DNA of 52,575 bases from Methanobacteriota archaeon. Lineage in GTDB: Archaea > Halobacteriota > Syntropharchaeia > JAUWIL01. The stretch is taken from assembly GCA_030605385.1 (NCBI GenBank), contig JAUWIL010000001.1:1-52575 (forward strand), in the 5' to 3' direction. The notes under the pieces are model-generated. The model worked only from the letters and a program-made list of their open reading frames with translations, had not been told where the DNA came from and made no database searches. The position numbers were made by a program, and so were the translations under genes. Of this stretch, positions 1 to 30,651 are shown piece by piece; the first letter of the stretch is position 1, and each line of letters starts with the position of its first letter.

Positions 1-116
1 AAGAGACTAGATCCAGAGGATACCGAAATCAGGTCAAAGAAATCAAGATAAAATTCATCATCCACAACATAGACAGATATATAAAACAAAATATTCAATT
101 TATTCTGGGAGGATTT

Positions 117-2102
117 CTACGGAGCCACTGTAGTTGTTCCTTTTAAACACTCATCTATCTGTCCATCGCAGTCATCATCTATGCTGTTGTCACATACCTC
201 TGTAGTCGGTTTAACTTCGCCAACGCAACTTCCCCATGATCCTGCAGAACAAGTTTGCGTTCCAGATGCACAGGCACCAACATCACTGCCACAGGATTGT
301 GTCAGACCCTCATCTGTGCTGCCATCGCAATCATCATCTATACCGTTGCATGTTTCAGTGGTTGATCCTACTTCACCAGCACAGCTACTCCATACCCCAC
401 TTGAGCATGTTTTAGTTCCTGCTACACAGGCACCAACATCGCTGCCGCAGGATTGCGTCAGGCCCTCATCTGTGCTTCCATCGCAATCATCATCCTTGTT
501 GTTGCAGGTTTCTGTTGCACCGGGATGAATGCTTGCATCGGCATCATTGCAATCATCTCCCCCAGACGACAGAGCATAGTATCCGTCTAAATCGGCATCC
601 TGAGCCCCCAGAGGAAAACCAACAAATGTTCCATTTTGCTTTATGAGTGAGTGGGATACGCTTGCTTCAAGCTGAACCTTAGACCAAACATACAAAGCAT
701 CAAACTCATAATCCGTGCTGACTGAGAATACTTCACCTGCACTTGCAGTGAATGCGTGACCTGTGTCGGGACTGCTTGGACCTCTTGTGTTAAAGGTTCT
801 GCCGTGCGGACCTGAAACAACTACTGCATAGCCGCATCCACTTTTATCTACACCTGGCTCTATTTGAACCATAATATCACCCGACTCTAGGGCAGTAAAC
901 GTTCGTGTCACAGTGCACTCGGCACCAGTATACATATACATATACTTGACCCAATCTGGATAGCTAGAGCACACCCAGTCCGTCCCGTCCCATACAACTT
1001 TCTGGTATCCAACATATGTTTCAGGACAGGTTGAAGGCGGAGATTTATATGTTTGCGTGCAAGTACTCTGGCAGCACCTATCAGAATCAGAAGCCGCTAT
1101 AAATGCCCCACTACAATACTCAGTATTAGGGCACACATCCCCTCCCTGACTGGAACAGGTAGGATTCGGAGATGGTAACGTTGCGCTTAGTATCCTGTAA
1201 TAGCCTCCATCATAGCCTGAATAGTACATTCTCTTAGAGCCATCGTCCAATGTTATTGTATTTGATGCATATGCAGTACTGTCGTATGTTCCGCCTTTGC
1301 TTATTCTTGTTCCGCTCTCCTTGGTCAATGTCAGCCCATCTGAGGATGTAGCACTTAGTATGTTCCCACCAGATTTTGAGTAGTACATCCTGTAAGATCC
1401 ATCTGATAGTCTTATGACATCAGGATAGCATACTTGATCCGATGTGCTATCACGCTCTATACGAACGCCGCTCTCCTTGGTCCACGTGAGACCATCAGAA
1501 GATGTGGCACTGAGGATTCGGTATGCACTGCTACCCGATTCCGAGCCGAAATAGTACATTCGATACGTGCCATCATCAAGTTTTATTACCTCGGGATTGT
1601 GCACTTGCCCGCTGTCATAGGTTCCCCCAGTTGTTAACCTGTATCCACTCTCTTTCGTCCATGTTAATCCATCAGAAGAAGTTGCACTGAGGATGTAGTG
1701 GTTGGGTGCACCTCCAGCAACCCCCATATAATACATCCTATAGGATCCACTATCGAGCTTTATAACGTCTGGAGAGGCTATAGCGTCAACATTAAACTCC
1801 CCACCAGGGCTAAGCCTCACACCACTATCCTTAGTCCATGAAACACCATCTGAGGAAGTTGCACTCAATATACGCAGTGTTGAGCCGTCATAGCCTGTGT
1901 AGTACATCCTGTACCCGCCGGATATCTTCACAACATCTGAGATGTATGCATAGTTGCTGTCGTATGTTCCGCCTACATCTATCCGGATTCCACTTTCCTT
2001 CGTCCATTCTTCGCTGGCTGATGCAGGATATGCTGATATCGCCAGCATTAGCAGCAGCATCAATACCATTCCAAGTTTTATCAAACCGTACTTTTTATTC
2101 AT
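117..2102 (-). CDS. Secreted multidomain protein: signal peptide, about six Asp-box beta-propeller blades, Cys-rich linker, beta-rich domain, three C-terminal Cys-rich CxxxDDDCDGxxDEG repeats
   Basis: ORF 117..2216. Start moved to M39 because MNKKYGLIKLGMVLMLLLMLAISAYPASA is a typical signal peptide with a G-rich RBS upstream. About 45-50 aa blades repeat, each ending RILSATSSDG(L/V)(T/S)WTK (SxDxGxTW Asp-box). The C-terminus repeats CN..DDDCDG(S/Q)(T/I)DEG three times. Confidence 0.7.
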   Translation of the reverse strand: MNKKYGLIKLGMVLMLLLMLAISAYPASASEEWTKESGIRIDVGGTYDSNYAYISDVVKISGGYRMYYTGYDGSTLRILSATSSDGVSWTKDSGVRLSPGGEFNVDAIASPDVIKLDSGSYRMYYMGVAGGAPNHYILSATSSDGLTWTKESGYRLTTGGTYDSGQVHNPEVIKLDDGTYRMYYFGSESGSSAYRILSATSSDGLTWTKESGVRIERDSTSDQVCYPDVIRLSDGSYRMYYSKSGGNILSATSSDGLTLTKESGTRISKGGTYDSTAYASNTITLDDGSKRMYYSGYDGGYYRILSATLPSPNPTCSSQGGDVCPNTEYCSGAFIAASDSDRCCQSTCTQTYKSPPSTCPETYVGYQKVVWDGTDWVCSSYPDWVKYMYMYTGAECTVTRTFTALESGDIMVQIEPGVDKSGCGYAVVVSGPHGRTFNTRGPSSPDTGHAFTASAGEVFSVSTDYEFDALYVWSKVQLEASVSHSLIKQNGTFVGFPLGAQDADLDGYYALSSGGDDCNDADASIHPGATETCNNKDDDCDGSTDEGLTQSCGSDVGACVAGTKTCSSGVWSSCAGEVGSTTETCNGIDDDCDGSTDEGLTQSCGSDVGACASGTQTCSAGSWGSCVGEVKPTTEVCDNSIDDDCDGQIDECLKGTTTVAP

Positions 2103-2561
2103 TCTTTTGCCCCCCCATTCCAAAGGTTTTGCTCCATATTTCATTTTCATCAGAGTTTGCTTTGATTGGCTGGACATCTTGAGTTTCTTCACCGTAGGAT
2201 TTTGTTCATGCGGCATGGTATATTCACCGACATGCTCTCAGCGCCGACAGCTACGCTAAAACAGCCAAGAATTAGAATTATGATGAGTGCTGTAAGTGCT
2301 ATCTTTCTGTGTGCTTTATCTGCCATATGTAACCTATCCATTTGGAAATAGTGAACATAATATATTTTAGTTTGATGATGTATATGTGATTAGTAGCTTA
2401 TGGAGCTTTATCCTACATAGTTGTTTAGGTGCTTCCACATTAACTTGCAGATCCGTCTTTGCCCGCTCACATTGTAATTATGGTACAATCGGATAAAAAT
2501 GTTACCCATAAATTAAGTGTGCCTCATTAAGCTTTTTTCTGTAAGGCATGAGTAAGCTACT

Positions 2562-2720
2562 ATGTCAAAAAAAAGATACAGGACAGTCTCACTGCCAGAG
2601 GAACTTTTTGAAAAAATAGAAGCTGTAATCGAAAGCAAAGAATATGGGTACAGTAGTGTTACTGAGTTCATTAAGGAATTAGTAAGGGAGCGGTTGAGGG
2701 AGTTGGGGTATAAGGTTTAG
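2562..2720 (+). CDS. Ribbon-helix-helix (CopG/Arc-like) small DNA-binding protein, 52 aa
   Basis: ATG at 2562 to TAG at 2718-2720, below the ORF-track length cutoff. MSKKRYRTVSLPEELFEKIEAVIESKEYGYSSVTEFIKELVRERLRELGYKV fits the beta-strand (RTVSLP) plus two-helix RHH pattern. Confidence 0.6.
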   Translation: MSKKRYRTVSLPEELFEKIEAVIESKEYGYSSVTEFIKELVRERLRELGYKV

Positions 2721-2776
2721 GGGTGTAAAACTCTTTCTCCAACCTTCTATTTCTCCACTTCAAACCGGAAAATAGG

Positions 2777-2815
2777 CACGTTATGTTTATGTGTGAGTGG
2801 TGGTATAAAATAAGG
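2777..2815 (+). promoter_or_regulatory. Copy 1 of a ~40-nt conserved motif with TATA-like box, directly upstream of the TIR-like gene
   Basis: CACGTTATGTTTATGTGTGAGTGGTGGTATAAAATAAGG. A TATAAAATAA box lies about 25 nt before the GGAGGTGA RBS and the ATG at 2832. Confidence 0.45.
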
Positions 2816-2831
2816 GGGAGGTGAGTCATCC

Positions 2832-3314
2832 ATGCCATACACAGTTTTTCTAAGCCATTGCACGAGTCCCGAGGATATGAAATATGTGAATTGGTTCGAT
2901 TCTACACTTAGAAATCAATGTATTGGGTGCTATGTTGCTGAATGGTATCGAGAGCCAAACAACCTTATAACAGACAAAATAAAAAACGCAATTAATGATA
3001 GCCAATGCGCTCTAGTATTATGGACGAAAAAAGGAAGAGGATCCCAATTCGTCAATCAAGAAGTAGGTTATGCTGAAGATAAAAAACTAATAATACCTCT
3101 TGTAGAAAAGGGAGTTCCATTAGGAGGGTTCCTTTATGGAAGGGATTGTATTGAATTTGAAAGAAACAATCCAACAGGAGCATTAAATAGTACCGTTGAA
3201 TATATCAATCAACTTAAGCTTGCCAAAGAGCAACAGGATATGGCAACGGGCATGGTTACTCTTCTCATTAGCCTTTTTACACTCGGAGGTCTACTTGCTG
3301 CAGCATCAAGGTAA
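2832..3314 (+). CDS. TIR-like domain protein with C-terminal transmembrane helix
   Basis: The N-terminus YTVFLSHCTSPED, then SQCALVLWTKKG...FVNQEVGYA...KLIIPLV, matches the TIR/DUF1863 layout (strand-SH start, conserved W/E helix). The last ~25 aa (GMVTLLISLFTLGGLLAAA) are hydrophobic. GGAGGTGA RBS lies 8 nt upstream. Confidence 0.6.
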   Translation: MPYTVFLSHCTSPEDMKYVNWFDSTLRNQCIGCYVAEWYREPNNLITDKIKNAINDSQCALVLWTKKGRGSQFVNQEVGYAEDKKLIIPLVEKGVPLGGFLYGRDCIEFERNNPTGALNSTVEYINQLKLAKEQQDMATGMVTLLISLFTLGGLLAAASR

Positions 3315-3326
3315 GAAACCTTCTTC

Positions 3327-3593
3327 CTAATACTTATTTTTACAGTATTGCTCTATTTGGTTCAACATCCCCTCGCTACCCGCAACGACCTTAATGTCTC
3401 GCAAGTCCTCCACTATCTTTTCAAAGACCTTGCATTTTCCTTTGAGGTGGGCGAGAGGGTGAAGATAAAAATCGACCCGGAGGGAGAAAGACTGATCGTT
3501 GAGAAACGGTACTCGTTTTGTCTCTCTTTTGTCTCTCTGCACTCTATTAAAGATTGTCAGAGGGTGCGACTCAGATAAAGTTAACTTTGTCAT
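3327..3593 (-). CDS. Hypothetical protein, last gene of a four-gene minus-strand operon
   Basis: ATG start with a GAGG RBS. It overlaps the stop of the upstream gene by 23 nt. No recognisable domain. Confidence 0.4.
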   Translation of the reverse strand: MTKLTLSESHPLTIFNRVQRDKRETKRVPFLNDQSFSLRVDFYLHPLAHLKGKCKVFEKIVEDLRDIKVVAGSEGMLNQIEQYCKNKY

Positions 3594-4401
3594 CTTTTAC
3601 CGCCTCTAGTTTATCCTCCCATATGTTATACTGGGTCATGTATTTCTCCCTCCTCTCGGCTAATCTTGTATCTAATTGAGTGGATTGTACGAACTCCTCT
3701 ATTTCGTTTGCCATCCTTCTTATCGTATCTATATCGCTTTTTATTTCCTCGCATTCCCTTATTTCCAATAGTTCTTTCTCGAATCTAGGAAAGATATCTT
3801 TAATGTAAATATGGCTATGTTTTTCCCCCAATATTGATCTTGTTAGTTTTGGGACGCCATCTCTTTTTAACCATTGTTTGCCATCTTTCATTCCAAATTC
3901 CGCTTCAAATTTGGGGATGTATCGTTCAAGTTCCTCGGAAGTCTCTATCCACCCTTCAACTTTTTCTTTGATATCCTTTTCTACTTCTCCTAGGTTAGAG
4001 TTATATTCTCCAACCTGTTTTCGGTATTCTGCTACGTCCTCAACCAGCTCCTTATGTCTTTTAATAAAATCTTTTTCAGCACCCGTATCGCCTTTTAAAC
4101 TCGGCCCCCAATATCTTAAAGAATCTATATTCCCACTCTTTATTTCAGATATAGTTTCCCCATTCATATATAGAGTTCTCATGATGGGGTCTATTATCTT
4201 GGCTATCGCGATTACTACACTGTCTCTTTCTCTGTCTTTACGTAGTTCATCTACCTGCTCACTTACCTTTTTGACACACACCCAAGTTATTATTGCTAAG
4301 AGTGCTGTTGCAACTGCAGTGACTGCTGCTGCGAGATTATTTGTTATTCCCTCTACCGCCATCACTACTATTTCTTCTGCTACCATTACCACTGTTTGCA
4401 A
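3571..4401 (-). CDS. Membrane-anchored helical/coiled-coil protein, unknown function
   Basis: N-terminal hydrophobic helix (AAAVTAVATALLAIITWVCV), followed by about 230 aa rich in E/K with heptad-like character. No known catalytic motif seen. Confidence 0.55.
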   Translation of the reverse strand: MQTVVMVAEEIVVMAVEGITNNLAAAVTAVATALLAIITWVCVKKVSEQVDELRKDRERDSVVIAIAKIIDPIMRTLYMNGETISEIKSGNIDSLRYWGPSLKGDTGAEKDFIKRHKELVEDVAEYRKQVGEYNSNLGEVEKDIKEKVEGWIETSEELERYIPKFEAEFGMKDGKQWLKRDGVPKLTRSILGEKHSHIYIKDIFPRFEKELLEIRECEEIKSDIDTIRRMANEIEEFVQSTQLDTRLAERREKYMTQYNIWEDKLEAVKDDKVNFI

Positions 4402-4461
4402 CCCTCCTATCTATAACAGGAACAGTTGTCAGCCAAATGAAAGGGCTGAACGTCTAAACTC

Positions 4462-4977
4462 CTAGTTCCTCCCTCTCTCTTTTGCAATAGCTTCTTGTAT
4501 CATTCTTTTAACCCTATCTTCATCCTGATTAATATCATCTTCATTGAACCACAGAACCTTCCACCCCCTCTCATTTAGTGCGTTCTCCTTCCCCGCATCT
4601 CTTTCTTTTGCATGCCAGTAGTCAGCGCCAGGCTCTATAGCAACTTTTTCGTTTACAAATGCGAAGTCGATCCAATATCTTGAAACATTGTACTGCTTTT
4701 CGTAATCCTCATGTTCTTTGAAGCACAGTTCGTTTAGATATTGCTCAGTCCTTTTTTCCAAGTCTGTGTCTTTTTTTGATGGCGGCACTACTTCTCGTTC
4801 AAAACGAACTTCATCTACTACAAAATTTAGTTCACAGTCTTGACAAGTTACTATGAAAGGAGGCTTCTGCTTAAGATAAAGGTTAAAGATGTTATAATAT
4901 CTCATACATTTTGGACATTTTGTCCACAGGTTCGTCCCACCGCCTATGTACGCAATACTTTTCATCATCTCTACCAT
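4462..4977 (-). CDS. Zinc-ribbon plus DUF559 (Vsr-like endonuclease fold) protein
   Basis: CPKC...CQDC zinc ribbon at the N-terminus. The C-terminus YWIDFAFVNEKVAIEPGADYWH...RDAGKENALNERGWKVLWFNEDDI matches the DUF559 pattern (Y.vDF...IE.DG..H...D..R...L...G..vlRf). Confidence 0.6.
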   Translation of the reverse strand: MVEMMKSIAYIGGGTNLWTKCPKCMRYYNIFNLYLKQKPPFIVTCQDCELNFVVDEVRFEREVVPPSKKDTDLEKRTEQYLNELCFKEHEDYEKQYNVSRYWIDFAFVNEKVAIEPGADYWHAKERDAGKENALNERGWKVLWFNEDDINQDEDRVKRMIQEAIAKERGRN

Positions 4978-4978
4978 A

Positions 4979-5521
4979 TTACCGCAGCTCCAACAATTCT
5001 ATCCCATATTTTTCCAATGTGGACAGCAACTCTGGATCTCTCTGCTTGCAGATTATCAGCTTCTGTATCTCGTTGACAGGATAGTTTTCTTTAACAAGAA
5101 CTTCGTAACTCAGCACTTGCCCGATTGCTTCGAAATTCAGTTTATCTTTGATTTCCGCTAAAACAATATTCTTATCCTTTATCATGTTAAGGAATCCTCT
5201 TTCAATATCTTCATCAGGAGACTTAGATCTCTTCCTGAATTTCACTATTCTTACATTATAAGAATCAGGAGTTTGAGCGCCAGTTTTTCCTTCAGGAATA
5301 AATATAGCATCAACTCTTTTTATTTCAGTTGACACGGTCTCACTCTCAAACACAGGTTTAACATGTACTTCTGCATAAATAGTTCCCCTAATTTCAGGAT
5401 CTTCTAACATCTTTTTATAATATTTATGCAACAATATGTCTTCTTTCCCCTTTGTCTTATTAGGTGGCCAAGGATCAGTATATGTTCCCATCACCAGGCC
5501 TACTGCTGACTTTTTAGCCAT
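4979..5521 (-). CDS. Putative PD-(D/E)xK nuclease-fold protein
   Basis: ORF 4979..5563. Start set to the ATG at 5521, which has a GGTGAT RBS 6 nt upstream. VDAIFIP ... VLAEIKDK gives a D...E-x-K arrangement. One nt separates its stop from the next gene's start. Confidence 0.45.
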   Translation of the reverse strand: MAKKSAVGLVMGTYTDPWPPNKTKGKEDILLHKYYKKMLEDPEIRGTIYAEVHVKPVFESETVSTEIKRVDAIFIPEGKTGAQTPDSYNVRIVKFRKRSKSPDEDIERGFLNMIKDKNIVLAEIKDKLNFEAIGQVLSYEVLVKENYPVNEIQKLIICKQRDPELLSTLEKYGIELLELR

Positions 5522-5625
5522 GTTCTTATCACCTTGCCATACTAACTTAACTATCAGGTGCAACCAACTTAAATGTACTTCTAGACATTTCTATACGCTT
5601 TCATGCTCCCATCAGAATAACAGCT

Positions 5626-5665
5626 CACGTTATGTTTATGTGTGAGTGATAGCATAAGAATAATG
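5626..5665 (+). promoter_or_regulatory. Copy 2 of the same motif, in the spacer between the minus-strand operon and the PIN gene
   Basis: CACGTTATGTTTATGTGTGAGTGATAGCATAAGAATAATG. The first 23 nt are identical to copy 1. Confidence 0.4.
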
Positions 5666-5822
5666 ATAGCTTTGATCTCAGGAAGATTGAAGTTCAAGCA
5701 TGAAGGTGTGTAAGCAAAATAGATTTCGTATGTCGTACCAAGATGATAGAATATATGGCATTAATGTCTGGTATGCCTAAGTTAGGCGACACACATATAT
5801 GTGAAGTAAACACGTAGGGATT

Positions 5823-6293
5823 ATGATGAAACGGAAGTTTAGAGTATACATAGACACGTCGGTCATCGGGGGATATTTAGACGAGGAGTTTAAAGATGCT
5901 TCAACGATGCTTGTTGGAAGATTTAAGAGAGGGGAGCTTGGAGCAGTAATCTCAGAGATCACCAAACTTGAATTGAAAAAAGCACCCAGCGATGTGCAGG
6001 GTGTGCTTAAAGAAATACCAGAAGAAAATATAGAGTATGTTGAACTAACCGATGAAGCAACAACCTTGGCTAAGGGATACGTATCTGACGGTGTATTGGA
6101 TGAAAACAAAATTGCAGATGCACAGCATATAGCCATCGCTACAGTTCATAATGTAGATCTGATTGTGAGTTGGAATTTTAAACACATAGTCAACATTAAT
6201 AAAATCAGAGGCTTCAATGCGGTAAACTTGAAAATGGGCTATCCACTAATAGATATAAGAAGCCCTCAGGAGGTGATATCCTATGAAGAATAA
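5823..6293 (+). CDS. PIN-domain protein (VapC-like toxin)
   Basis: YIDTSVIGG (first acidic residue), ISEITKLE, ADAQHIAIA and the SWNFKH C-terminal motif follow the PIN-domain spacing. Confidence 0.6.
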   Translation: MMKRKFRVYIDTSVIGGYLDEEFKDASTMLVGRFKRGELGAVISEITKLELKKAPSDVQGVLKEIPEENIEYVELTDEATTLAKGYVSDGVLDENKIADAQHIAIATVHNVDLIVSWNFKHIVNINKIRGFNAVNLKMGYPLIDIRSPQEVISYEE

Positions 6294-6414
6294 AAAATTT
6301 GATGCAGTGAAAATGATGAGGGAGATAAGGGACGAATTAAGTAAAAAATTTATACACATGACTTTTGAAGAGCAGAAAAAGTTCATCAAGAAAAGTCTAG
6401 AGCAGACAGCATAG
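6283..6414 (+). CDS. Small 43-aa protein overlapping the PIN gene stop, possible cognate antitoxin or partner
   Basis: ATG at 6283 overlaps the PIN gene 3' end by 11 nt. MKNKKFDAVKMMREIRDELSKKFIHMTFEEQKKFIKKSLEQTA is helical and charged. Below the ORF-track cutoff. Confidence 0.35.
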   Translation: MKNKKFDAVKMMREIRDELSKKFIHMTFEEQKKFIKKSLEQTA

Positions 6415-6482
6415 GGGGCATACACGTCGCATGAAAGGCACCGGTAGCATATATGGGCATGTGAAGGGCAGGATAATGATTT

Positions 6483-6881
6483 ATGTCACAAAAAGGTTGG
6501 TATTATAATCCCCCCAAGCCAAAGGTTCCTGAGGTAGAAAAAAACAGGATTAAGAGCATTTGTGGTGAGTATATTAGGACTGTTTTAAAACCTAAACATA
6601 TAATCCCCAGCCCCTCACATAAAGAGTATTATCATATTGAAGATATGTTTACAAAATGGTGGCGGAATTACTTTTATTTTTATGCCAAATACCATTATAC
6701 AGATCCAAATGCAATTAAGGAGTTTTTAGATCATGGCTTTGCCAGATTGGAATATGTTAATGAACACAGGTTCAATTTATCGTATATGAGACATACAGGA
6801 CAATGGTGGGAGGTTTTTTCAGAATTATCATTGGAAGAATGCTTAGACACCATCGAAGAAATGCCACATTTTAATCCATAG
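6483..6881 (+). CDS. Hypothetical protein, DUF3024-like
   Basis: Clean 132-aa ORF. The W/Y-rich core and the C-terminal GFARLEY...W.L.YMRHTGQWWEV...L.E.L..IEE resemble DUF3024 as I recall it. Not verified. Confidence 0.4.
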   Translation: MSQKGWYYNPPKPKVPEVEKNRIKSICGEYIRTVLKPKHIIPSPSHKEYYHIEDMFTKWWRNYFYFYAKYHYTDPNAIKEFLDHGFARLEYVNEHRFNLSYMRHTGQWWEVFSELSLEECLDTIEEMPHFNP

Positions 6882-7053
6882 AAAAGGCTAAATAAAGCAT
6901 ACTATTTACATGAAAGCTAACGGACTCGCATAACAGGTGGGCATGCGGTTCGCTGCATTCACCAAAATGCTCGGCTTGATCACATAATGCTCTCCTCTTC
7001 GTATTGAATATTACCGATGTTACAGGCTGTTGTAATAAGTGTAATGTTGGTGA

Positions 7054-7200
7054 ACTATAACGGTTAACCCGTTTAAGCCGGGATCTGGTTTGTATCCGCC
7101 TTATTTTGCTGGTCGTGTGAGGGAGATTGAAGTCTGGGCAGGTGGATGTATTACGCAATTGGCTTCATGGCACTTCTTTGAAAATGATGATTGTACTTAA
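7054..7200 (+). pseudogene. N-terminal fragment of an archaeal-type AAA/STAND ATPase (no start codon, truncated after ~45 aa)
   Basis: The frame reads TITVNPFKPGSGLYPPYFAGRVREIEVW... The NPF.PG....PP.F.GRE.E motif is the usual N-terminus of the archaeal ATPase family. There is no P-loop downstream and the frame stops at 7198-7200. Confidence 0.3.
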
Positions 7201-7277
7201 ACTCATGTTGTTCAATTGGGTTTAATCGAGAAACATTTAAACACAATTATATTCATTATTATAACTGAGGTGATAAA

Positions 7278-7421
7278 ATGGAAAAAAGACAAGTATGTTT
7301 TACCATTGAGGAGGATATAGTGAAAAACATGGAAGAACTAAGGGACAAAACCGGCGTGCCAGTGAGCAAGCAAATTGAGTTAGCTCTGAAAGGATACAAA
7401 ATCGAAAAAGTAGAGCAATAG
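7278..7421 (+). CDS. Ribbon-helix-helix small protein, 47 aa
   Basis: MEKRQVCFTIEEDIVKNMEELRDKTGVPVSKQIELALKGYKIEKVEQ shows the strand-helix-helix pattern. GAGGTGA RBS upstream. Confidence 0.5.
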   Translation: MEKRQVCFTIEEDIVKNMEELRDKTGVPVSKQIELALKGYKIEKVEQ

Positions 7422-7518
7422 TAAATTTCGGAGCATTTTAATGACGTATATTGAATTGAGTTTGGGTATCGTTATTGGTATTATTTTATCTTTAGTAGTG
7501 GATGTCGCCACAATACGC

Positions 7519-7863
7519 CTATATCTTAACCGATATCGTATCTTGATCTTCAAGAAAAACCTCTGCCACTGAATGGTTCGCCAGATCCAGTGCGTCTGCA
7601 ATTGCTTTTGGTATGGTTATCATGTATGAGTTGCCTCTTTTCGAGATTTTCACTTTCTCGTGTTTCTTAGCTTGCAGGAACAGGTAGGCTTTTTCCAGCG
7701 CTCCTGGGCTGAGCAGCTCATACTTGCACTTGGCGCATTTCCAACCACGTACTTTCAATCCTTCCACATCGATCTCGGTGCGCTCACACAGGTTGTTGCA
7801 CTGAGGGCACTTTAATCCCCCCTCTTCAAGATTCTTTAGTTCATCTATTTTTGATTCCGACAT
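7519..7863 (-). CDS. Antitoxin-like protein: YgiT/MqsA-type zinc ribbon fused to an AbrB/SpoVT domain
   Basis: CPQC...CAKC zinc ribbon. The C-terminal VKISKRGNSYMITIPKAIADALDL...VAEVFLEDQDTISVKI is a SpoVT/AbrB swapped-hairpin signature. Confidence 0.6.
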   Translation of the reverse strand: MSESKIDELKNLEEGGLKCPQCNNLCERTEIDVEGLKVRGWKCAKCKYELLSPGALEKAYLFLQAKKHEKVKISKRGNSYMITIPKAIADALDLANHSVAEVFLEDQDTISVKI

Positions 7864-8110
7864 GTTTTATTAACCACACTTCCTCGTCCAGAGAGTATGA
7901 GTAGCTGGGCACGAGCTTGGTGAAGACGATCTGATTCTTCCGATCGATTGCCCGGCCAACCTCTCCCTTCGTCATTCTTGCATCCTCGTAGTCGTATCCA
8001 TCCTCAATTATCTCCTGTAGTTTCCAGGGCGAGATGTCATGCCTCACCATATCTTTCAGCGCGTCTTTGCTGGGAATGCATAGTTTGCTTCTGAAGCGAA
8101 CATCAAACAT
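7841..8110 (-). CDS. Small toxin-like protein (possibly DUF4258/RelE-fold), upstream partner of the AbrB antitoxin
   Basis: Overlaps the antitoxin gene by 23 nt. The ATG at 8110 gives MFDVRF... An in-frame TTG at 8158 would add 16 aa encoded by the family A repeat. Family assignment is tentative. Confidence 0.45.
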   Translation of the reverse strand: MFDVRFRSKLCIPSKDALKDMVRHDISPWKLQEIIEDGYDYEDARMTKGEVGRAIDRKNQIVFTKLVPSYSYSLDEEVWLIKHVGIKNR

Positions 8111-8162
8111 GTCTGAAAACCTTTGGTTTTCATACTGTTGCGGAACTGCGTTCCGCAAACAT
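8105..8162 (+). repeat. Family A double-hairpin unit, solo copy
   Basis: AAACATGT CTGAAAACC TTT GGTTTTCA TACTGTT GCGGAAC TGC GTTCCGC AAACAT. Confidence 0.85.
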
Positions 8163-8317
8163 CTCTGGCTCCTGTATAAACAGTATGTTTAAACACCCTA
8201 TTAAAACTTTTTGTTACCAACGTTGTTTTTATCTTCCTTATACTTCAACCGCTATGTTATTCTTTCTCAAGCAACCTTGCTGTATTATAAAGTACAACTT
8301 TGTAATACAGAGAAAAA

Positions 8318-8669
8318 TCATTTGATTTTTCTCGCTGTTTCCTCGCTTATCTCTTGCTGCTCGCTGGTTGCGCCGGTCTCTATTCTGCGCTCCCTGGCCA
8401 TCCTGATCACGTCATACACGCTCTTGTTCAGCATGACTGCAGCATGTCTAAAACACTGCGTGTTTTATACGGTTGAAAAACTACGTTTTTCAAACACTGC
8501 TGAGAGATATCCTGCCGCGCGCGTATAAGTCCATCACGTACTCTGCAGCCCCCATGTAAAAAAGCTGTCTCATTGTAGTGCTTTTGTCCACGTACATCTC
8601 CCCGGTGCGCAGCTCCACCAGTGGAAGAATGTCCTCCGGTATTCGTAGTGGATATGATACCATGCCCAT
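8318..8669 (-). pseudogene. UPF0175-family (antitoxin-like) gene split by a family A hairpin unit
   Basis: The 5' part, 8669..8490, encodes MGMVSYPLRIPEDILPLVEL...AAEYVMDLYARGRISLSSV and stops inside the repeat. The 3' part, 8443..8318, encodes AAVMLNKSVYDVIRMARERRIE... Joining the two flanks gives an in-frame ...GRISLSSAAVMLNKS... typical of UPF0175. Confidence 0.6.
8444..8497 (+). mobile_element. Family A double-hairpin unit inserted inside a coding sequence
   Basis: CATGT CTAAAACAC TGC GTGTTTTAT ACGGTT GAAAAAC TAC GTTTTTC AAACA, flanked by CA on both sides. Confidence 0.75.
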
Positions 8670-8799
8670 TTACATCACCTCCATCAGTTTATTTTTTGCT
8701 TTTAGATAACTTGACCTGTTTACGTACACCCTGACGTTTTCCAGCGCCGCATACAAAGTATGTGAAGCGCGCAAAGAACGAAACGCCACTTCCATCCAG

Positions 8800-9777
8800 C
8801 TATATCTTATCTATCTCGCGCATCTCGTTATAGTTAATGGCGGCGCCCATGGCGTATATCTCCGCAGATGAATTATCCTCCAGGACTGCGGCAATCATGT
8901 TAATTCCAGTGCACATGGTTATGCCGGCATGCCGTCCACTCACACGTATTCCAAGGTTTTCTTCCTCGCTGATCTTTATGGTGCCGTCGATACCTATACC
9001 TGCCATGTTTTCGATTATGCGCTTTGCATCATCGACTGCTGCGGAAGGTATTTCTCTGTAGTTGGCGAGAATCTTGCCGCTGCCCGTTCTGGCTGCACTT
9101 AGTATTGACGTCATGCCCCTGCTTATGAATATCTCGGTTGGATTCATTGATGTGCCGCTGTATCCTATCAGATCTGTGAATGCGGTTGGGCTGCTGCCAA
9201 GTATCTGTAGCGTGCCCGAGTATTTCATATCTACTGGTATTCCGCTTCTGATCAGCGCGCCGTCCACCGTCATGCTGCATATTGTTGCTATGCCAACCCT
9301 CCCGAAAGGTATGACAATACTGCCCCCAGCTCCTTCTTCCAGTATTTTCACCCGATTGCTCACAGCGTACCCTGCCTGTATAACCTCCTTTATTATGCCA
9401 ACGGCACGGTCAAACAGGCCTTTATCTACTATAAGTACGTCGCCGATCACCATGCCGCCGCCCTCTTCCAGATTGAATACCGTGTTGTAGATGAGTTCCT
9501 CTATCCTTGTTATCGTGAAGCCGAGACGGTCTTCCACAAGAGCGTCCTCAAGTTCTTTCAATCCGAAACTGGTTATGCTTCTGCCGTAGTTCCCGTGTTT
9601 GACGGTAAGCGTAGCACTGTCGAGTGAGGCAAGGTGGTACCTCACAGCGCGTTCGGTCACATCATACCCCCTCTTCATCAGTTCTTCTGCGATAGCCCTG
9701 GCTCCAAGCGGATCAGTGCTGTTACTGAGTATCCGCAGTATCTCTATCAGCATCCGCTCTGTCTTTTTTCTTGCCAT
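8800..9777 (-). CDS. nrpR: NrpR-type nitrogen regulatory repressor (wHTH plus DUF128 domain)
   Basis: The N-terminus ILRILSNSTDPLGARAIAEELMKRGYDVTERAVRYHL is a winged HTH. The remainder matches the DUF128/NRD layout of short Methanosarcina-type NrpR. Confidence 0.7.
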   Translation of the reverse strand: MARKKTERMLIEILRILSNSTDPLGARAIAEELMKRGYDVTERAVRYHLASLDSATLTVKHGNYGRSITSFGLKELEDALVEDRLGFTITRIEELIYNTVFNLEEGGGMVIGDVLIVDKGLFDRAVGIIKEVIQAGYAVSNRVKILEEGAGGSIVIPFGRVGIATICSMTVDGALIRSGIPVDMKYSGTLQILGSSPTAFTDLIGYSGTSMNPTEIFISRGMTSILSAARTGSGKILANYREIPSAAVDDAKRIIENMAGIGIDGTIKISEEENLGIRVSGRHAGITMCTGINMIAAVLEDNSSAEIYAMGAAINYNEMREIDKI

Positions 9778-9840
9778 AGCACCAATACTCCAACTGGGGT
9801 GTCATTCTGTATCTATTTTTCTGCACGTATTTGCACACTG

Positions 9841-9895
9841 CTTGCGGAGCAAAGCTCCGCAACCGTATAAAACACGCAGTGTTTTATACATGTAT
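9841..9895 (-). repeat. Family A double-hairpin unit, solo copy in inverted orientation
   Basis: The reverse complement reads ACATGT ATAAAACAC TGC GTGTTTTAT ACGGTT GCGGAGC TTT GCTCCGC AAG. Confidence 0.8.
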
Positions 9896-9934
9896 CTGGC
9901 AAACGTGAGATATTTCACCCACATATCGAATAGT

Positions 9935-10729
9935 TCAGCCCACGCAGTATATGATATTTGATATTTCTGCCAGCTTATCGGCGGGTATCTGTTCTGCACG
10001 CAGTTTAAGATAGTCCTCAGGTATATCATCAAGCGCTTTTGTTATATCTAACTGGGGCAGCATATGACCCGTCTTAAGAAGCGCCTTTCGCAGGGTCTTG
10101 CGGCGCTGTGTGAATATCGCAGTTATAAAATCCATGAAAAAATCCTCATTCCTGACGCTGTACGGCGGCTTGCGCGGTTTTAGTTCAACCACGGCAGACG
10201 TTACCTCTGGCATCGGATAAAAAGCGCTCCGCGGCACTACCTCAAGTATTCTTGGCGTCGTATAGTAGTTCACGGCTATTGACAATCTGCCGTAGTTCTT
10301 TGAGCCAAATTCTGCGGTCATGCGCCTGGCAAACTCGTACTGGTACATCAGAACTGCCAGCCTGAAGCCCAGCCCGATTAGCCTGAATGTAATCCTGGAC
10401 GATATGGAATACGGCAGGTTTGAAACTGCTTTATCCACCTCAGGCAGATCTATTTTCATCGCGTCGGCATGTATTAACTCAATATTATCTCTACCACGGT
10501 ACTTGTTTTCCAGTTCTCCGAACAAATCCTTATCCACTTCTATCGCTATGACTCTTCCAGCCTTCTCAACCAGCTTATCTGTCAGGTTTCCATAACCTGG
10601 TCCTATTTCGAGTATGGTCTCTTCACTGCCTATACCAGCATACTCCACGATGCGCTCTATTACCCGCTCGTCTCTGAGAAAATGCTGACCTCTACTGCGC
10701 CTGCGCATGATACCACTGCCACCGGTCAT
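9935..10729 (-). CDS. ksgA: 16S rRNA (adenine1518/1519-N6)-dimethyltransferase KsgA/Dim1
   Basis: GQHFL, the SAM motif ILEIGPGYGNLT, and NLPYSISS. Confidence 0.9.
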   Translation of the reverse strand: MTGGSGIMRRRSRGQHFLRDERVIERIVEYAGIGSEETILEIGPGYGNLTDKLVEKAGRVIAIEVDKDLFGELENKYRGRDNIELIHADAMKIDLPEVDKAVSNLPYSISSRITFRLIGLGFRLAVLMYQYEFARRMTAEFGSKNYGRLSIAVNYYTTPRILEVVPRSAFYPMPEVTSAVVELKPRKPPYSVRNEDFFMDFITAIFTQRRKTLRKALLKTGHMLPQLDITKALDDIPEDYLKLRAEQIPADKLAEISNIIYCVG

Positions 10730-10744
10730 ATTTTTTATTTGCCT

Positions 10745-10869
10745 GTCGAACTTTCAGTTCGACTGTCTTGCGAAAGATCTGATTTCGCAAAGTCTTGCAA
10801 AACATAGTTTTGCGGGATATCTGAAGGCTCTGCCTTCAGAGATATCTTGCAGAACGAAGTTTCGCGGGA
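10745..10869 (+). repeat. Family B hairpin array (5 hairpins of 19-27 nt)
   Basis: GTCGAACT/AGTTCGAC. Then TCTTGCGAAA..TTTCGCAAAG, TCTTGCAAAAC..GTTTTGCGGGA, TATCTGAAGG..CCTTCAGAGATA and TCTTGCAGAAC..GTTTCGCGGGA. Confidence 0.85.
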
Positions 10870-10963
10870 CATCGTCATCCGCCCGGAATCCAGATGTTTC
10901 AGATAAAATGATATTATGAGAAAAGCTGTAGTTATTATCTTTGGTGAATGGTTTGGGAGCTTT

Positions 10964-11572
10964 TCAGGGGCTGCCTGTCCTCGGCGTGAATATACGGTAT
11001 TTGCAGTTCTCGTCCTGCAGCTCCTCCTCTATTCGGTTCGCCACTATCTTGTCTGGATTGTGTATTGTCTTGACTCTCTCTGAGAGTTCTTCGAAGCTCT
11101 TGAATGGACCCTTCTTCCGTTCATCAAGTATCTCCCGCAGCGTTTTTTTACCTATGCCTGGCAGAAGGCTCAGCATGTGAAGGCGCGTTGTTATTGGATA
11201 CGATTCGTTGTATACTTTGATGAATCGTTCCCCGTTTTTGTCAACAATTGTCTTGAGTATGAATGGGAGTTCTATCTGGGCATTGTGCGTAAGTTCATCA
11301 TACCTGAGCCTGCGCTTGACGTGGTCTATCACATCGCGCTCTCCGTCTCCTATATACGCCCGGTCGTACTGCTGGGGTACCGTATCCTCTTTGGGAGCGA
11401 GTTCCATTAGAATGAAGTTTTCTTCTCCAACCGCCTGCAACAGCGGGTGCTTCTGGTAGAGCGGTCTGGTGTCATCCGGATGCCCGTGCGGCAGGTAATC
11501 AAGAATCCATACGTAGAGTTCTCTCGCTCTTCTGGCATTACTGTACGGCATCAGCAGATCCCCAAAACTCAC
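10964..11572 (-). CDS. DUF655 family protein (OB-fold plus HhH, predicted nucleic-acid binding)
   Basis: Conserved archaeal neighbour of rpoF and ksgA. Motifs: LDYLPHGHP...YIG...R, and a C-terminal HhH LPGIGKKTLREIL. Confidence 0.7.
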   Translation of the reverse strand: MSFGDLLMPYSNARRARELYVWILDYLPHGHPDDTRPLYQKHPLLQAVGEENFILMELAPKEDTVPQQYDRAYIGDGERDVIDHVKRRLRYDELTHNAQIELPFILKTIVDKNGERFIKVYNESYPITTRLHMLSLLPGIGKKTLREILDERKKGPFKSFEELSERVKTIHNPDKIVANRIEEELQDENCKYRIFTPRTGSP

Positions 11573-27268: not shown

Positions 27269-27333
27269 AAATCTAAACGTTTACTTGGATTTGTTATAAT
27301 TGTTTGGGTTCAATGGTGATCCCATCTGGAAGA

Positions 27334-27615
27334 TTACCCCATGGTTATTTCCGATGCAATCCTTTCAGCTAGCTCCTGCATTCTTACCGACGTCCTCCCG
27401 ACACCCGAATTCTTATCATCGGTTATTATTGATGCAAGCTCGTTCCCAAGCATGAATATTGCTTGTTTATGTTCAGCCTTGCTCCTGTGTATGTGTGCCG
27501 GGCTTATGTTGAGAGTTGCATAGCTTCCAAACCCTGATTCCATTCCCTTATCTTCAAAATACTTCTTTAGTTGTGCCAGCAATATGTGGAGATGTATCAA
27601 TTCTTCCTTTCGCAT
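27334..27615 (-). CDS. UPF0058 family protein
   Basis: MRKEELIHLHILLAQLKKYFE... is the conserved archaeal UPF0058 N-terminus as I recall it. Confidence 0.55.
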   Translation of the reverse strand: MRKEELIHLHILLAQLKKYFEDKGMESGFGSYATLNISPAHIHRSKAEHKQAIFMLGNELASIITDDKNSGVGRTSVRMQELAERIASEITMG

Positions 27616-27929
27616 AATCTCTCCCCCATTTACCTATACCTTCTTCACCTTGCTGAAGATGATAAAAATAGTATTCAAATATATACTAAGTAATATAGTA
27701 GGAAGGTAACTTCCTACAATCCCATATATAAATTATATACTTAATATGCCACGATTTATCATGGCAATTTAATACTTCGACTACTCTTACCTTAATTTAC
27801 AAAATTGCTTGCAGAACGCTCCGCCTTTAAAGACGGGGATGAATGCAGCACATCATCAAGCAATTTTGTAAACGCTACAAACTTTAGTTTGTAGTAGTTT
27901 ACCATGACATATAACACCTAATAACGCAT

Positions 27930-30495: not shown

Positions 30496-30651
30496 TCTCC
30501 AACAATCTATAAAAAACGCATTCGAAGTAAGTAGGTGCCTCAGAACTCATAGGGTCTGTCATCACCCTTTAAGGGGCTCAGCTATTATCTTCTTCATCAT
30601 CGGCACCTGTAGAAATATCGGGAGTCAAGTGCCTTAATAGTTCTTACCACA

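What the first reader, a model, noticed from the sequence alone, without database searches (positions are those of the whole stretch)
2340..8700. AT-rich accessory island packed with toxin-antitoxin, nuclease and TIR genes and gene debris
About 6.4 kb lies between the secreted-protein gene and nrpR. By eye it looks clearly more A/T-rich than the flanking housekeeping DNA. It contains only small genes. These are two RHH proteins, a TIR-like protein, two nuclease-fold proteins, a PIN protein, a zinc-ribbon/AbrB pair and a DUF3024-like protein. It also holds two disrupted or fragmentary genes and two family A repeat copies. No integrase, tRNA or recognisable att site marks its ends.
Basis: partly seen in the sequence, partly recalled or inferred. 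Interest (0 to 1): 0.65.

Follow-up and report, generated by a model that had tools for sequence, protein, structure and literature searches.

The report
Foreign low-GC defence and toxin islet
A 5-kb stretch of foreign-looking, A/T-rich DNA next to the nitrogen regulator gene nrpR of an uncultured methanogen-related archaeon carries a jumble of small toxin–antitoxin, nuclease and TIR immune-type genes, some already broken; this kind of accessory islet is common and is not a new kind of system.

Summary
Interval 2340-8700 has 39.4% GC against 48.2% for the rest of the window, and the listed genes are there.

**Two parts.**
- A foreign-looking core (about 2217-7513, 38% GC). Its nine genes have GC3 of 0.28-0.46, against 0.50-0.65 for 28 host genes.
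- A host-composition tail (7519-8799).

**Core contents.** These look like independent modules:
- an RHH protein
- a tail-anchored TIR protein
- an operon with a RecB-motif protein, a Zn-ribbon-DUF559 nuclease and a membrane protein
- a PIN toxin with a conserved small downstream partner
- DUF3024
- an RHH antitoxin whose 148-aa partner gene is cut after about 24 codons, exactly at the compositional boundary

**Tail contents.** A Zn-ribbon-AbrB pair, and a UPF0175-like gene split by a 55-nt host hairpin repeat.

**Ends.** No integrase, tRNA or end repeats were found. A 23/32-nt direct repeat brackets 2.85 kb (TIR plus the nuclease operon). One low-coverage contig from another sample shows the head-to-tail junction of that segment; this is unresolved.

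**Limits.** Synteny could not be tested, because no close relative exists in the collections. No complete known defence system is present.

**Verdict.** An ordinary, decaying accessory/defence islet: a new member of a known kind.

The parts
2217..7513 (.). Compositionally foreign low-GC core of the islet (about 38% GC)
   Evidence: GC, GC3, codon usage and tetranucleotide signature all differ from 28 host genes. The right limit is set by loss of homology to the RHH-148aa module.
2189..2341 (-). 50-aa ORF with a signal-peptide-like hydrophobic stretch, out of frame with the BNR gene; status uncertain
   Evidence: ORF list. No family search was done on it.
2562..2720 (+). 52-aa ribbon-helix-helix protein (orphan regulator or antitoxin)
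   Evidence: Pfam RHH_1 1.1e-3 (below cutoff), NikR N-terminal models 1.8e-5, phrog_38461 1.5e-9. It is not a conserved neighbour of the TIR family in 34 loci.
2777..2808 (+). Direct repeat D11, copy 1 (23-nt exact core), 24 nt upstream of the TIR start codon
   Evidence: two copies in the window, 0 expected by chance.
2832..3314 (+). 160-aa tail-anchored TIR protein (TIR domain plus C-terminal hydrophobic helix)
   Evidence: TIR_2 3e-12 and ThsB-like PADLOC hits ~1e-6. AF2 model pLDDT 88; Foldseek top hits are SPARTA TIR-APAZ, plant NLR TIRs and TIR-STING. The motif VNQEVGYAE with Glu77 is invariant. The hydrophobic tail is present in 30 of 34 family members.
3327..3593 (-). 88-aa ORF with no homologues and host-like codon usage; real gene or filler, uncertain
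3571..4392 (-). 273-aa protein with one N-terminal TM helix and a long helical domain; third gene of the minus-strand operon
   Evidence: No Pfam hit. An exhaustive HMMER search found only 20 distant relatives, some with an extra N-terminal signal peptide plus domain before the TM helix.
4462..4977 (-). 171-aa Zn-ribbon + DUF559 (Vsr-like PD-(D/E)XK) endonuclease
   Evidence: DUF559 6.2e-12, MTES_1575 1.4e-6, PADLOC 'HEase' 3.9e-7, PHROG homing/HNH endonuclease families.
4979..5521 (-). 180-aa protein with a RecB-type motif (D71, E123-x-K125, Q135-xxx-Y139); first gene of the operon; its stop codon ends 1 nt before the next gene's start codon
   Evidence: Only 2 homologues in 5.8e9 clusters; the motif residues are invariant. 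No Pfam or PDB sequence hit. The AF2 model failed.
5626..5657 (+). Direct repeat D11, copy 2, in the divergent intergenic region upstream of PIN
   Evidence: Contigs L005 and L007 end here, and L006 crosses from here into the copy-1 context.
5823..6293 (+). 156-aa PIN-domain toxin
   Evidence: Pfam PIN 2.9e-5, 25.1 bits against a cutoff of 23.6. Relatives found in L009-L012.
6283..6414 (+). 43-aa partner overlapping the PIN stop codon (putative antitoxin, toxin-first order)
   Evidence: A homologous small ORF lies in the same position in L009, L010, L011 and L012.
6483..6881 (+). 132-aa DUF3024 protein
   Evidence: Pfam 3.3e-18.
6882..7177 (.). Non-coding gap with no recognisable gene, RNA family or stable fold
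7278..7421 (+). 47-aa RHH_3 antitoxin-type protein
   Evidence: Pfam RHH_3 1.4e-6. It is >=90% identical to proteins of low-GC Methanosarcinales MAGs. DNA over 7178-7499 is 78% identical to L098-L101.
7441..7572 (+). Remnant of the 148-aa partner gene: the first ~24 codons are homologous, the rest is unrelated
   Evidence: tblastn of the L098 148-aa protein. Homology ends at 7499-7513.
7519..7863 (-). 114-aa Zn-ribbon + AbrB/MazE-type DNA-binding protein (putative antitoxin), host-like codon usage
   Evidence: MazE_antitoxin 6e-5 and zinc-ribbon models ~1e-2, with CPQC...CAKC visible in the sequence. Codon log-odds +0.14.
7841..8158 (-). 105-aa ORF overlapping the start of the ZnR-AbrB gene by 23 nt (putative toxin); its first ~23 codons are made of a family-A repeat, so the true start is uncertain
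   Evidence: No family in Pfam, NCBIfam, PADLOC, PHROGs or plasmids. Repeat overlap.
8089..8166 (.). Family-A double-hairpin repeat copy
   Evidence: hairpins at 8114-8132 and 8138-8158.
8330..8669 (-). UPF0175-like antitoxin gene split by a repeat insertion
   Evidence: Removing 55 nt restores one 98-aa frame. Pfam UPF0175 E=0.016 across the junction; PADLOC PDC-S70 5.6e-4.
8444..8498 (.). 55-nt family-A double-hairpin insertion inside the UPF0175-like gene
   Evidence: hairpins at 8449-8467 and 8473-8493. The insertion is also present in population contig L095.

Best explanation
The flagged interval is an accessory 'junk-drawer' islet made of two layers.

**Layer 1 (about 2217-7513).** This is DNA acquired by horizontal transfer from a lower-GC gene pool, about 38% GC, like some Methanosarcinales MAGs. 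It is a mosaic of small modules that are not functionally linked:
- (a) An orphan RHH regulator.
- (b) A single-gene, tail-anchored TIR protein. By analogy with other prokaryotic TIRs, it is inferred to consume NAD+ or make a nucleotide signal at the membrane once triggered.
- (c) A tightly packed minus-strand operon: a RecB-motif protein, a Zn-ribbon-DUF559 Vsr-like endonuclease and a membrane-anchored helical protein (plus perhaps an 88-aa ORF). It is inferred to be a DNA-cutting module, either restriction-like or homing-like.
- (d) A PIN RNase toxin with its conserved small downstream partner, acting as a toxin-first toxin-antitoxin pair.
- (e) DUF3024.
- (f) An RHH antitoxin whose 148-aa membrane partner has been deleted after about 24 codons.

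**Layer 2 (7519-8799).** This is older or native DNA with host codon usage. It carries a toxin-first pair (a 105-aa ORF plus a Zn-ribbon-AbrB antitoxin, an architecture like MqsRA) and a UPF0175-type antitoxin gene inactivated by insertion of one 55-nt copy of the host's hairpin repeat.

**How it behaves.** The islet has no mobility gene of its own. It grew and decays by illegitimate or short-homology recombination, and the right junction lies inside a gene.

**Shown:** composition, domain content, the two gene disruptions, conservation of the PIN pair, and independence of the RHH and TIR genes.

**Inferred:** horizontal origin, donor pool, and all biochemical activities and any anti-virus role.
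For: - **Composition and codon usage.**
- **Right junction is real.** Three independent assemblies from other samples span it at 99.8-100% identity (L095, L096, L097).
- **Right junction is a truncation.** The RHH gene plus 100 nt upstream and the first ~60-72 nt of the partner gene match L098-L101 (78% nt identity; the RHH is >=90% identical at protein level). Homology stops at 7499-7513, 6 nt before the stop codon of the convergent host-type gene. Those MAG loci have 38-40% GC.
- **Modules are independent.** The TIR family occurs in many phyla, with the best GTDB-genome match only 41-44% identical and with varying neighbours. The PIN+small-ORF pair recurs elsewhere without the other islet genes.
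- **TIR fold and motifs.** The TIR fold, the catalytic-type Glu and the tail anchor are all present. Single-protein TIR systems, including a TIR+TM one, protect E. coli from phage (PMC11350192).
- **Decay.**
- **No mobility signals.** No tRNA, integrase or end repeats.
- **Host repeats.** Host hairpin repeats occur only outside the low-GC core.
Against: - No presence/absence polymorphism or empty site was seen. All population contigs show the window's arrangement.
- The left boundary is not anchored. The only left-flank gene has intermediate codon usage (GC3 0.41, log-odds -0.06) and the contig ends 116 nt beyond it, so the atypical region, and possibly a mobility gene, may continue off the contig.
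- The absence of host repeats from the core is not significant (about 0.5 expected).
- No complete known defence system is present.
- Nuclease activity of the 180-aa protein rests on a motif only.
- An 88-aa ORF inside the core has host-like codon usage.
- The head-to-tail D11 junction in L006 hints that part of the islet might still move.
Confidence: 0.7

Rival explanations
1. The islet is the right-hand remnant of a larger integrated mobile element (provirus, plasmid or integrative element). Its integrase and left att site lie beyond the start of the contig, or have been deleted.
For: - The contig begins only 116 nt left of the BNR gene, and that gene has codon usage intermediate between core and host.
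- Assemblies often break in variable regions.
- The RHH at 2562 hits a PHROG family (1.5e-9), and the PIN has relatives on IMG/VR contigs.
- The right junction is a truncation, as expected for a decayed element.
Against: - No capsid, replication or integration gene is present in 1-8800.
- Five islet proteins have no relatives in IMG/VR.
- There is no tRNA anywhere in the window.
- A secreted BNR/MopE protein is not typical cargo of such elements.
Confidence: 0.17
2. The 2,849-bp segment bounded by the D11 direct repeats (TIR gene plus the nuclease/membrane operon) is a discrete cassette that recombines through the 23-bp repeat core. It would form a circle or a tandem duplication in part of the population, so it would still be mobile or amplifiable although it encodes no recombinase.
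For: - The 23-nt exact core (32 nt at 91%) occurs exactly twice, with 0 expected.
- Contig L006 from sample ERZ4219663 reads window ...5625 + core + 2800-2830, the head-to-tail junction, with the copy-1 variant bases.
- Contigs from two further samples stop at copy 2.
Against: - L006 has 2.4x coverage and extends only 31 nt past the core. A SPAdes multi-k chimera through a 23-nt repeat is a plain alternative.
- No empty site (RHH-D11-PIN) was seen.
- Contig coverages inside and outside the segment are similar (3.2 vs 2.6-3.3; 2.4 vs 2.0; 1.3-1.7 vs 2.3), so there is no fixed duplication.
- The core is absent from the JGI metagenome collection and from IMG/VR.
- The repeat may simply be a shared promoter or operator: it sits just upstream of TATA-like sequences of two plus-strand genes.
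Confidence: 0.1
3. The region is native and not horizontally acquired. Its low GC would simply reflect weakly expressed short genes and long intergenic spacers, or the join would be an assembly or binning chimera.
For: - Small genes and spacers tend to be A/T-richer.
- Other short low-GC patches exist in the window, for example 27-28 kb and 29-30 kb.
Against: - The difference lies in synonymous third positions of every core gene, with no overlap with 28 host genes. Small host-side genes in the tail (ZnR-AbrB, 105 aa) are host-like.
- Three independent assemblies span the compositional junction, which argues against a chimera there.
Confidence: 0.03

Closest known systems
Defence islands / toxin-antitoxin-rich variable regions of archaeal and bacterial genomes (Makarova, Wolf, Snir & Koonin 2011, from my own knowledge)
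   Same: Clustering of unrelated small defence-type and toxin-antitoxin genes (TIR, PD-(D/E)XK nucleases, PIN, RHH, AbrB), atypical composition, pseudogenes, and a location beside housekeeping genes.
   Different: Very small (5-6.5 kb). No complete named defence system, no mobility gene, and variability between strains has not been demonstrated.
Single-protein TIR anti-phage systems, including a TIR+TM type (PMC11350192); ThsB of Thoeris
   Same: A short protein consisting of a TIR domain with the conserved Glu plus a membrane helix. PADLOC ThsB models and solved NADase TIRs are the nearest matches.
   Different: No ThsA-type partner in the window. The tail-anchored ~160-aa family is distinct (no NCBIfam model). 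In 13 of 34 related loci the gene is coupled to a 93-aa+PIN pair that is absent here. Activity is untested.
VapBC-type PIN toxin-antitoxin modules
   Same: A PIN-domain protein with a tightly overlapping small partner gene. The pair is conserved in other genomes.
   Different: Gene order is toxin first. The 43-aa partner has no recognisable DNA-binding domain.
MqsRA / HigBA-type toxin-first modules with a zinc-binding antitoxin
   Same: A small upstream ORF overlapping a downstream protein that combines an N-terminal four-Cys zinc ribbon with a C-terminal DNA-binding domain.
   Different: The DNA-binding domain is AbrB/SpoVT-type, not HTH. The 105-aa ORF matches no toxin family, and its 5' end is made of a repeat element.
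DUF559 / Vsr-like endonucleases, including EDxHD-type free-standing homing endonucleases (from my own knowledge)
   Same: The DUF559 domain scores above the Pfam cutoff. PADLOC 'HEase' and PHROG homing-endonuclease families hit the same domain.
   Different: Only 171 aa, with an N-terminal zinc ribbon instead of the DNA-binding modules of known homing enzymes. It is co-transcribed with two unrelated proteins.

Membership tests
Genomic island acquired by horizontal transfer | Base composition and codon usage deviate from the host genome | tested here: met
   GC 0.381 vs 0.482. GC3 ranges do not overlap (p=4e-6). Codon chi2 347 vs 31-95. Tetranucleotide distance 32 vs 10-15. This holds for 2217-7513 only.
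Genomic island acquired by horizontal transfer | Mobility genes (integrase, transposase) and a tRNA or direct repeats at the ends | tested here: not met
   No such Pfam domain in any islet ORF or in the 20 largest other genes. No tRNA. No end repeats. The left end may lie off the contig.
Genomic island acquired by horizontal transfer | Present in some and absent from other close relatives | not testable with these tools
   No relative closer than 52% NrpR identity. Population contigs all carry the block.
Thoeris (ThsA+ThsB) | ThsB-type TIR protein | tested here: inconclusive
   Pfam ThsB_TIR 7.6e-5 (23.5 bits, cutoff 21.2) and PADLOC ThsB models ~1e-6 over residues 4-86 only.
Thoeris (ThsA+ThsB) | Adjacent ThsA effector (SIR2 or TM with a SLOG or Macro sensor) | tested here: not met
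   No such domain in any ORF of 1-11000. Not seen among conserved neighbours in 34 family loci.
Single-protein TIR(+TM) defence systems | TIR fold with the conserved catalytic-type glutamate | tested here: met
   AF2 pLDDT 88, Foldseek probability 1.0 to NADase TIRs. Glu77 in VNQEVGYAE is invariant.
Single-protein TIR(+TM) defence systems | Membrane helix in the same polypeptide | tested here: met
   C-terminal 19-residue window with Kyte-Doolittle hydropathy 2.0. Conserved in 30 of 34 relatives.
Single-protein TIR(+TM) defence systems | Protects against virus infection; NAD+ consumption | not testable with these tools
   Needs an experiment.
Type II toxin-antitoxin, VapBC | PIN-domain toxin | tested here: met
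   Pfam PIN 25.1 bits against a cutoff of 23.6.
Type II toxin-antitoxin, VapBC | Cognate antitoxin gene adjacent and co-conserved | tested here: met
   An overlapping small ORF is conserved in L009-L012.
Type II toxin-antitoxin, VapBC | Antitoxin upstream, with an RHH, AbrB, HTH or PHD DNA-binding domain | tested here: not met
   The partner lies downstream, is 43 aa long and has no DNA-binding family hit.
DUF559 / Vsr-like endonuclease | Match to the family profile above the curated cutoff | tested here: met
   45.8 bits against a cutoff of 20.6.
RecB-like PD-(D/E)XK nuclease (for the 180-aa protein) | Profile or fold match; D, ExK, QxxxY motifs | tested here: inconclusive
   The motifs are present and invariant in 3 sequences. 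There is no Pfam or PDB sequence match, and the AF2 model failed with pLDDT 33.
UPF0175 antitoxin | Match to the family profile | tested here: inconclusive
   The reconstructed 98-aa protein gives E=0.016, 15.3 bits (cutoff 27.9), but the match spans the repaired junction. PADLOC PDC-S70 5.6e-4.
Site-specific cassette (integron-like or circle-forming) | Direct repeats bounding the unit, and a circular junction | tested here: inconclusive
   The repeats are present. There is a single low-coverage junction contig, L006.
Site-specific cassette (integron-like or circle-forming) | Cognate recombinase nearby | tested here: not met
   None in the window genes scanned.

The most novel reading that the evidence does not exclude
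The D11-bounded 2.85-kb unit (tail-anchored TIR plus the RecB-motif/DUF559/membrane-protein operon) is a recombinase-less defence cassette. It would excise or amplify through its 23-bp direct repeats, as the head-to-tail junction in contig L006 hints. That would make it an archaeal counterpart of integron-type shuffling of defence cassettes.
Probability: 0.08. Interest if true: 0.7.

Novelty: new member of a known kind. Interest (0 to 1): 0.3.

Why it matters
- **Main point.** This is a clean, small example of how accessory defence and toxin-antitoxin genes accumulate and decay beside core genes in an uncultured Methanosarcinales-like archaeon. It shows a foreign block whose edge cuts a gene, and an antitoxin gene knocked out by a mobile 55-nt hairpin repeat.
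- **Candidate genes.** It yields a few targets for experiment:
  - a widespread but uncharacterised family of tail-anchored TIR proteins
  - a very rare nuclease operon
  - a toxin-first PIN pair
- **Limit.** None of this changes current concepts.

Tried and rejected
- **Synteny.** Scans with NrpR of GTDB genomes and JGI metagenomes found nothing. An exact look-up of NrpR found nothing. The nearest homologues (52% and 48% identity) have unrelated neighbours. The test is therefore not informative.
- **Structure of the 180-aa protein.** A 3-sequence alignment gave pLDDT 33, which is unusable. PDB sequence and Pfam searches were empty.
- **RHH52 as cognate partner of the TIR.** Rejected: it is not conserved in any of 34 family loci.
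- **Remnants of the 93-aa+PIN pair that accompanies the TIR family elsewhere.** None in the window.
- **Provirus signal.** No IMG/VR relatives for RHH52, TIR, the 273-aa protein, DUF559 or DUF3024.
- **Plasmid relatives.** Only a 27% identical TIR in a Natrinema plasmid. Nothing for ZnR-AbrB or the 105-aa ORF.
- **Hidden RNA or gene in 6882-7277.** No Rfam hit, no Pfam hit in six frames, and fold z-scores of -1.6 and -0.3.
- **D11 elsewhere.** Absent from the JGI metagenomes and from IMG/VR.
- **Empty site.** No PIN-bearing contig reaches D11 copy 2.
- **Tandem repeats in the islet.** Only two trivial 11-nt arrays.

Full report

The window has 47.1% GC. Interval 2340-8700 has 39.4%, and the rest of the window has 48.2%. 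The stretch 2251-7500 (38.1%) is the lowest-GC 5.25-kb stretch in the whole 52.6 kb. The drop is not caused by spacers.

- Nine genes between 2562 and 7421 have GC3 of 0.28-0.46. Twenty-eight genes to the right have 0.50-0.65, with no overlap (Mann-Whitney p=4e-6).
- Pooled synonymous-codon usage differs with chi2=347 (41 d.f.). Contiguous host blocks of the same size give 31-95.
- The tetranucleotide distance of 2501-7500 from the host DNA is 32 (x1000), against 10-15 for all host windows.
- A leave-one-out codon log-odds score gives -0.10 to -0.27 for core genes and +0.13 to +0.44 for host genes.

ZnR-AbrB scores +0.14, the 105-aa ORF +0.12 and the 5' half of the UPF0175-like gene +0.27; GC over 7500-8800 is 45.2%.

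The only gene on the left, a secreted BNR/MopE-motif protein (117-2216), is intermediate (GC3 0.41, log-odds -0.06). The contig starts 116 nt beyond it. The left flank is therefore not housekeeping DNA, and the atypical region may run off the contig.

The right flank is a long run of core archaeal genes: nrpR, ksgA, DUF655, Pus10, LysRS, an XPD-like helicase, GatD, DnaG, deoxyhypusine synthase, SecDF, TrkH, aPGM and Nre.

**2. Gene content**

- **2562-2720.** A weak RHH (Pfam 1e-3; NikR N-terminal models 1.8e-5; phrog_38461 1.5e-9).
- **2832-3314.** TIR_2 (3e-12).
- **4462-4977.** A four-Cys ribbon plus DUF559 (6e-12), also hit by homing-endonuclease models of PADLOC and PHROGs.
- **5823-6293.** PIN (above the Pfam cutoff).
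- **6483-6881.** DUF3024 (3e-18).
- **7278-7421.** RHH_3 (1.4e-6).
- **7519-7863.** A zinc ribbon plus an AbrB/MazE domain (6e-5, just under the cutoff).
- **4979-5521 (the second 'nuclease-fold' protein).** It has no family hit and only two homologues among 5.8 billion clusters. The three sequences share invariant D71, E123-x-K125 and Q135-xxx-Y139, the RecB-type signature. PDB sequence search, a Pfam scan of all three members and an AF2 model (pLDDT 33) gave nothing. The nuclease assignment is therefore an inference.
- **3571-4392.** It has one N-terminal TM helix and a long helical domain. An exhaustive HMMER search of 1.8 billion representatives found 20 distant relatives. The longer ones carry a signal peptide and an extra domain before the TM helix, which puts the conserved domain in the cytoplasm. 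None has a Pfam domain.
- **Operon structure.** The stop codon of the 180-aa gene ends 1 nt before the start codon of the DUF559 gene. The 273-aa gene follows after 70 nt. The same order is seen on population contigs L005 and L006. This is one operon.

**3. Which genes belong together?**

*The TIR protein.*
- It is a stand-alone unit. Ten database homologues of 154-164 aa share VNQEVGYAE, IPLVEKGV and a C-terminal hydrophobic tail.
- A genome scan returned 80 loci from many bacterial and archaeal phyla, with a best identity of only 41-44%. Thirty of 34 full-length members keep the tail anchor.
- The AF2 model (pLDDT 88, pTM 0.80) is a TIR fold followed by one long helix. Its best structural neighbours are NADase TIRs: SPARTA TIR-APAZ, plant NLR TIRs, TIR-STING and BtTir.
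- The upstream RHH is not conserved next to it in any of the 34 loci.
- In 13 of them the TIR gene is translationally coupled to a 93-aa protein and a PIN protein. No trace of either exists in the window.

*The window's own PIN.*
- It belongs to a different family. Its 43-aa overlapping downstream ORF is conserved in position and sequence in four unrelated loci, L009-L012.
- It is therefore a real, toxin-first pair.

*The RHH at 7278.*
- It is >=90% identical to proteins of 'Methanosarcinales archaeon' MAGs. There it is followed, after 16 nt, by a 148-aa membrane protein.
- The window matches those loci at 78% nucleotide identity from 7178 to 7499. The window ORF 7441-7572 shares the first ~24 residues with the 148-aa protein and then diverges.
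- The partner gene has therefore been cut at 7499-7513. That is the point where codon usage switches, 6 nt before the stop codon of the convergent ZnR-AbrB gene.
- Those MAG loci have 38-40% GC, like the core. This makes such lineages plausible members of the donor pool.

*The host-composition tail.*
- The 105-aa ORF overlaps the ZnR-AbrB gene by 23 nt, with the toxin first. The architecture is analogous to MqsRA. The ORF matches no family, and its first ~23 codons consist of a family-A repeat copy.

**4. Gene debris**

On the minus strand, 8669-8490 encodes 59 aa ending ...GRISLSSV*. A second frame continues with AAVMLNKSVYDVIRMARERRIE... Removing exactly 55 nt (8444-8498) fuses them into one 98-aa frame.

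The 55 nt are one double-hairpin unit of the repeat family that also forms arrays at 31457-31838 and 40765-40969.

The repaired protein gives a weak UPF0175 match that spans the junction (E=0.016), and PADLOC PDC-S70 at 5.6e-4. The identification as UPF0175 is tentative, but the disruption is not.

The insertion is also present in the population contig L095.

The 296-nt gap 6882-7177 contains nothing recognisable.

**5. Ends and mobility**

- The window has no tRNA.
- No recombinase was found in the islet ORFs or in the 20 largest other genes.
- No repeats lie at the ends.
- The one notable repeat is internal. A 32-nt direct repeat with a 23-nt exact core (2777-2808 and 5626-5657) has 0 matches expected by chance. 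It brackets the TIR gene and the nuclease operon (2,849 bp start to start).
- Both copies lie just upstream of plus-strand genes (TIR, PIN) and of TATA-like A/T runs. A shared promoter or operator is the simple reading.
- However, contig L006 (sample ERZ4219663, 2.4x coverage) reads ...5625, then the core, then 2800-2830 with the copy-1 variant bases. This is the head-to-tail junction expected from a circle or a tandem duplication. Contigs from two other samples stop at copy 2.
- Contig coverages do not indicate a fixed duplication. No empty site was found, and the core is absent from the other collections.
- A low-coverage assembler chimera through the 23-nt repeat cannot be excluded. This stays an open lead.

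**6. Is the join real?**

Nine short contigs from three other ENA samples and one SRA run are 99.7-100% identical to the window. They cover 2408-3372 and 3989-8859. Three of them span the compositional switch at ~7500, and one reaches into nrpR, so the right junction is not an assembly artefact. No independent contig covers 2100-2408.

**7. Synteny**

Synteny could not be tested.
- The closest NrpR homologues are 52% and 48% identical (Halobacteriota MAGs) and have different neighbours.
- Scans of 185,579 species genomes and of the JGI metagenomes with NrpR found no close relative.

**8. Interpretation**

The evidence fits an ordinary accessory islet. About 5.3 kb of horizontally acquired, lower-GC DNA is made of unrelated small modules. 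It abuts about 1.3 kb of host-type DNA with further toxin-antitoxin-like genes. Both parts are decaying, by truncation and by repeat insertion.

PADLOC finds no complete known system, only ThsB-like and homing-endonuclease-like single hits.

- **TIR protein.** It is the best candidate for an active defence gene. Single-protein TIR systems, one of them TIR+TM, protect E. coli from phages, and mutation of the conserved active-site residues of the TIR NADase was tested there (PMC11350192).
- **Nuclease operon.** Its function (restriction-like, abortive, or selfish homing) is inferred from domain content only.

Rivals:
- the remnant of a larger integrated element whose integrase lies off the contig (0.17)
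- a still-recombining D11-bounded cassette (0.10)
- a native region or assembly chimera (0.03)

**9. Novelty**

Defence and toxin-antitoxin islands of this kind are well known (Makarova et al. 2011, from my own knowledge). This is a new member of a known kind, in a poorly sampled archaeal lineage.

Two points go slightly beyond routine. One is the possible circular junction. The other, outside the window, is the cross-phylum TIR-93aa-PIN operon.

Noticed in passing
window 8089-8166, 8444-8498, 9842-9892, 31457-31838, 40765-40969: The 'family A' repeats are strings of ~26-nt hairpin units that alternate between two types...ACATGT-stem-loop-stem-TAC and GTT-stem-loop-stem-AAC. The flanks are conserved, while the stem sequences differ between copies yet stay complementary. 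One 55-nt double-hairpin copy sits inside a coding gene (the UPF0175-like gene), so the element has been mobile, MITE- or REP-like. No Rfam match in 2000-10000.
   Followed up: partly
window 10745-10871, 13724-13782, 30651-30726: A second, different hairpin repeat family (GCGGGATATCTGAAGG...CCTTCAGAGATATCTTGC) lies in host intergenic regions.
   Followed up: no
L014, L017, L020, L021, L023-L030, L034-L036 (TIR match coordinates as): In 13 of 34 loci from many phyla, the tail-anchored TIR gene overlaps by 1-4 nt a ~93-aa protein (no Pfam or PADLOC hit), which in turn overlaps a ~132-aa PIN protein (Pfam 6e-14). This looks like a conserved three-gene operon that PADLOC does not list. It is absent from the window.
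   Followed up: partly
L006 (ERZ4219663 NODE_74324) vs window 4265-5625 and 2777-2830: This contig joins the left context of repeat copy 2 to the right context of copy 1. That is the head-to-tail junction of the 2,849-bp TIR+nuclease segment. It may be a circle, a tandem copy or a low-coverage assembly chimera.
   Followed up: partly
L098 5617-9973, L099, L100 (Methanosarcinales MAGs GCA_048452865.1, GCA_030667685.1): The intact RHH+148-aa module lies beside a type I restriction gene cluster and RhuM, and about 3 kb from an NrpR-like (NRD1_2) gene that is 40-45% identical to the window's nrpR. Two lineages therefore have this module close to an NrpR-family gene. This could be coincidence or a shared hot spot.
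   Followed up: partly
window 117-2341: The secreted BNR/MopE-motif protein gene has internal 156-177-nt repeats, and its GC3 is 0.41, between core and host. Just upstream is a 50-aa ORF (2189-2341) with a second signal-peptide-like segment in another frame, possibly a further gene fragment.
   Followed up: no
window 3327-3593: This ~270-nt patch inside the low-GC core has host-like codon usage on both strands (88-aa minus ORF +0.10; 76-aa plus ORF +0.23) and no homologues.
   Followed up: no
window 27001-28000 and 29001-30100: Two further short low-GC patches (0.40-0.42) contain small ORFs (27334-27615, 29844-30041). They were not examined.
   Followed up: no
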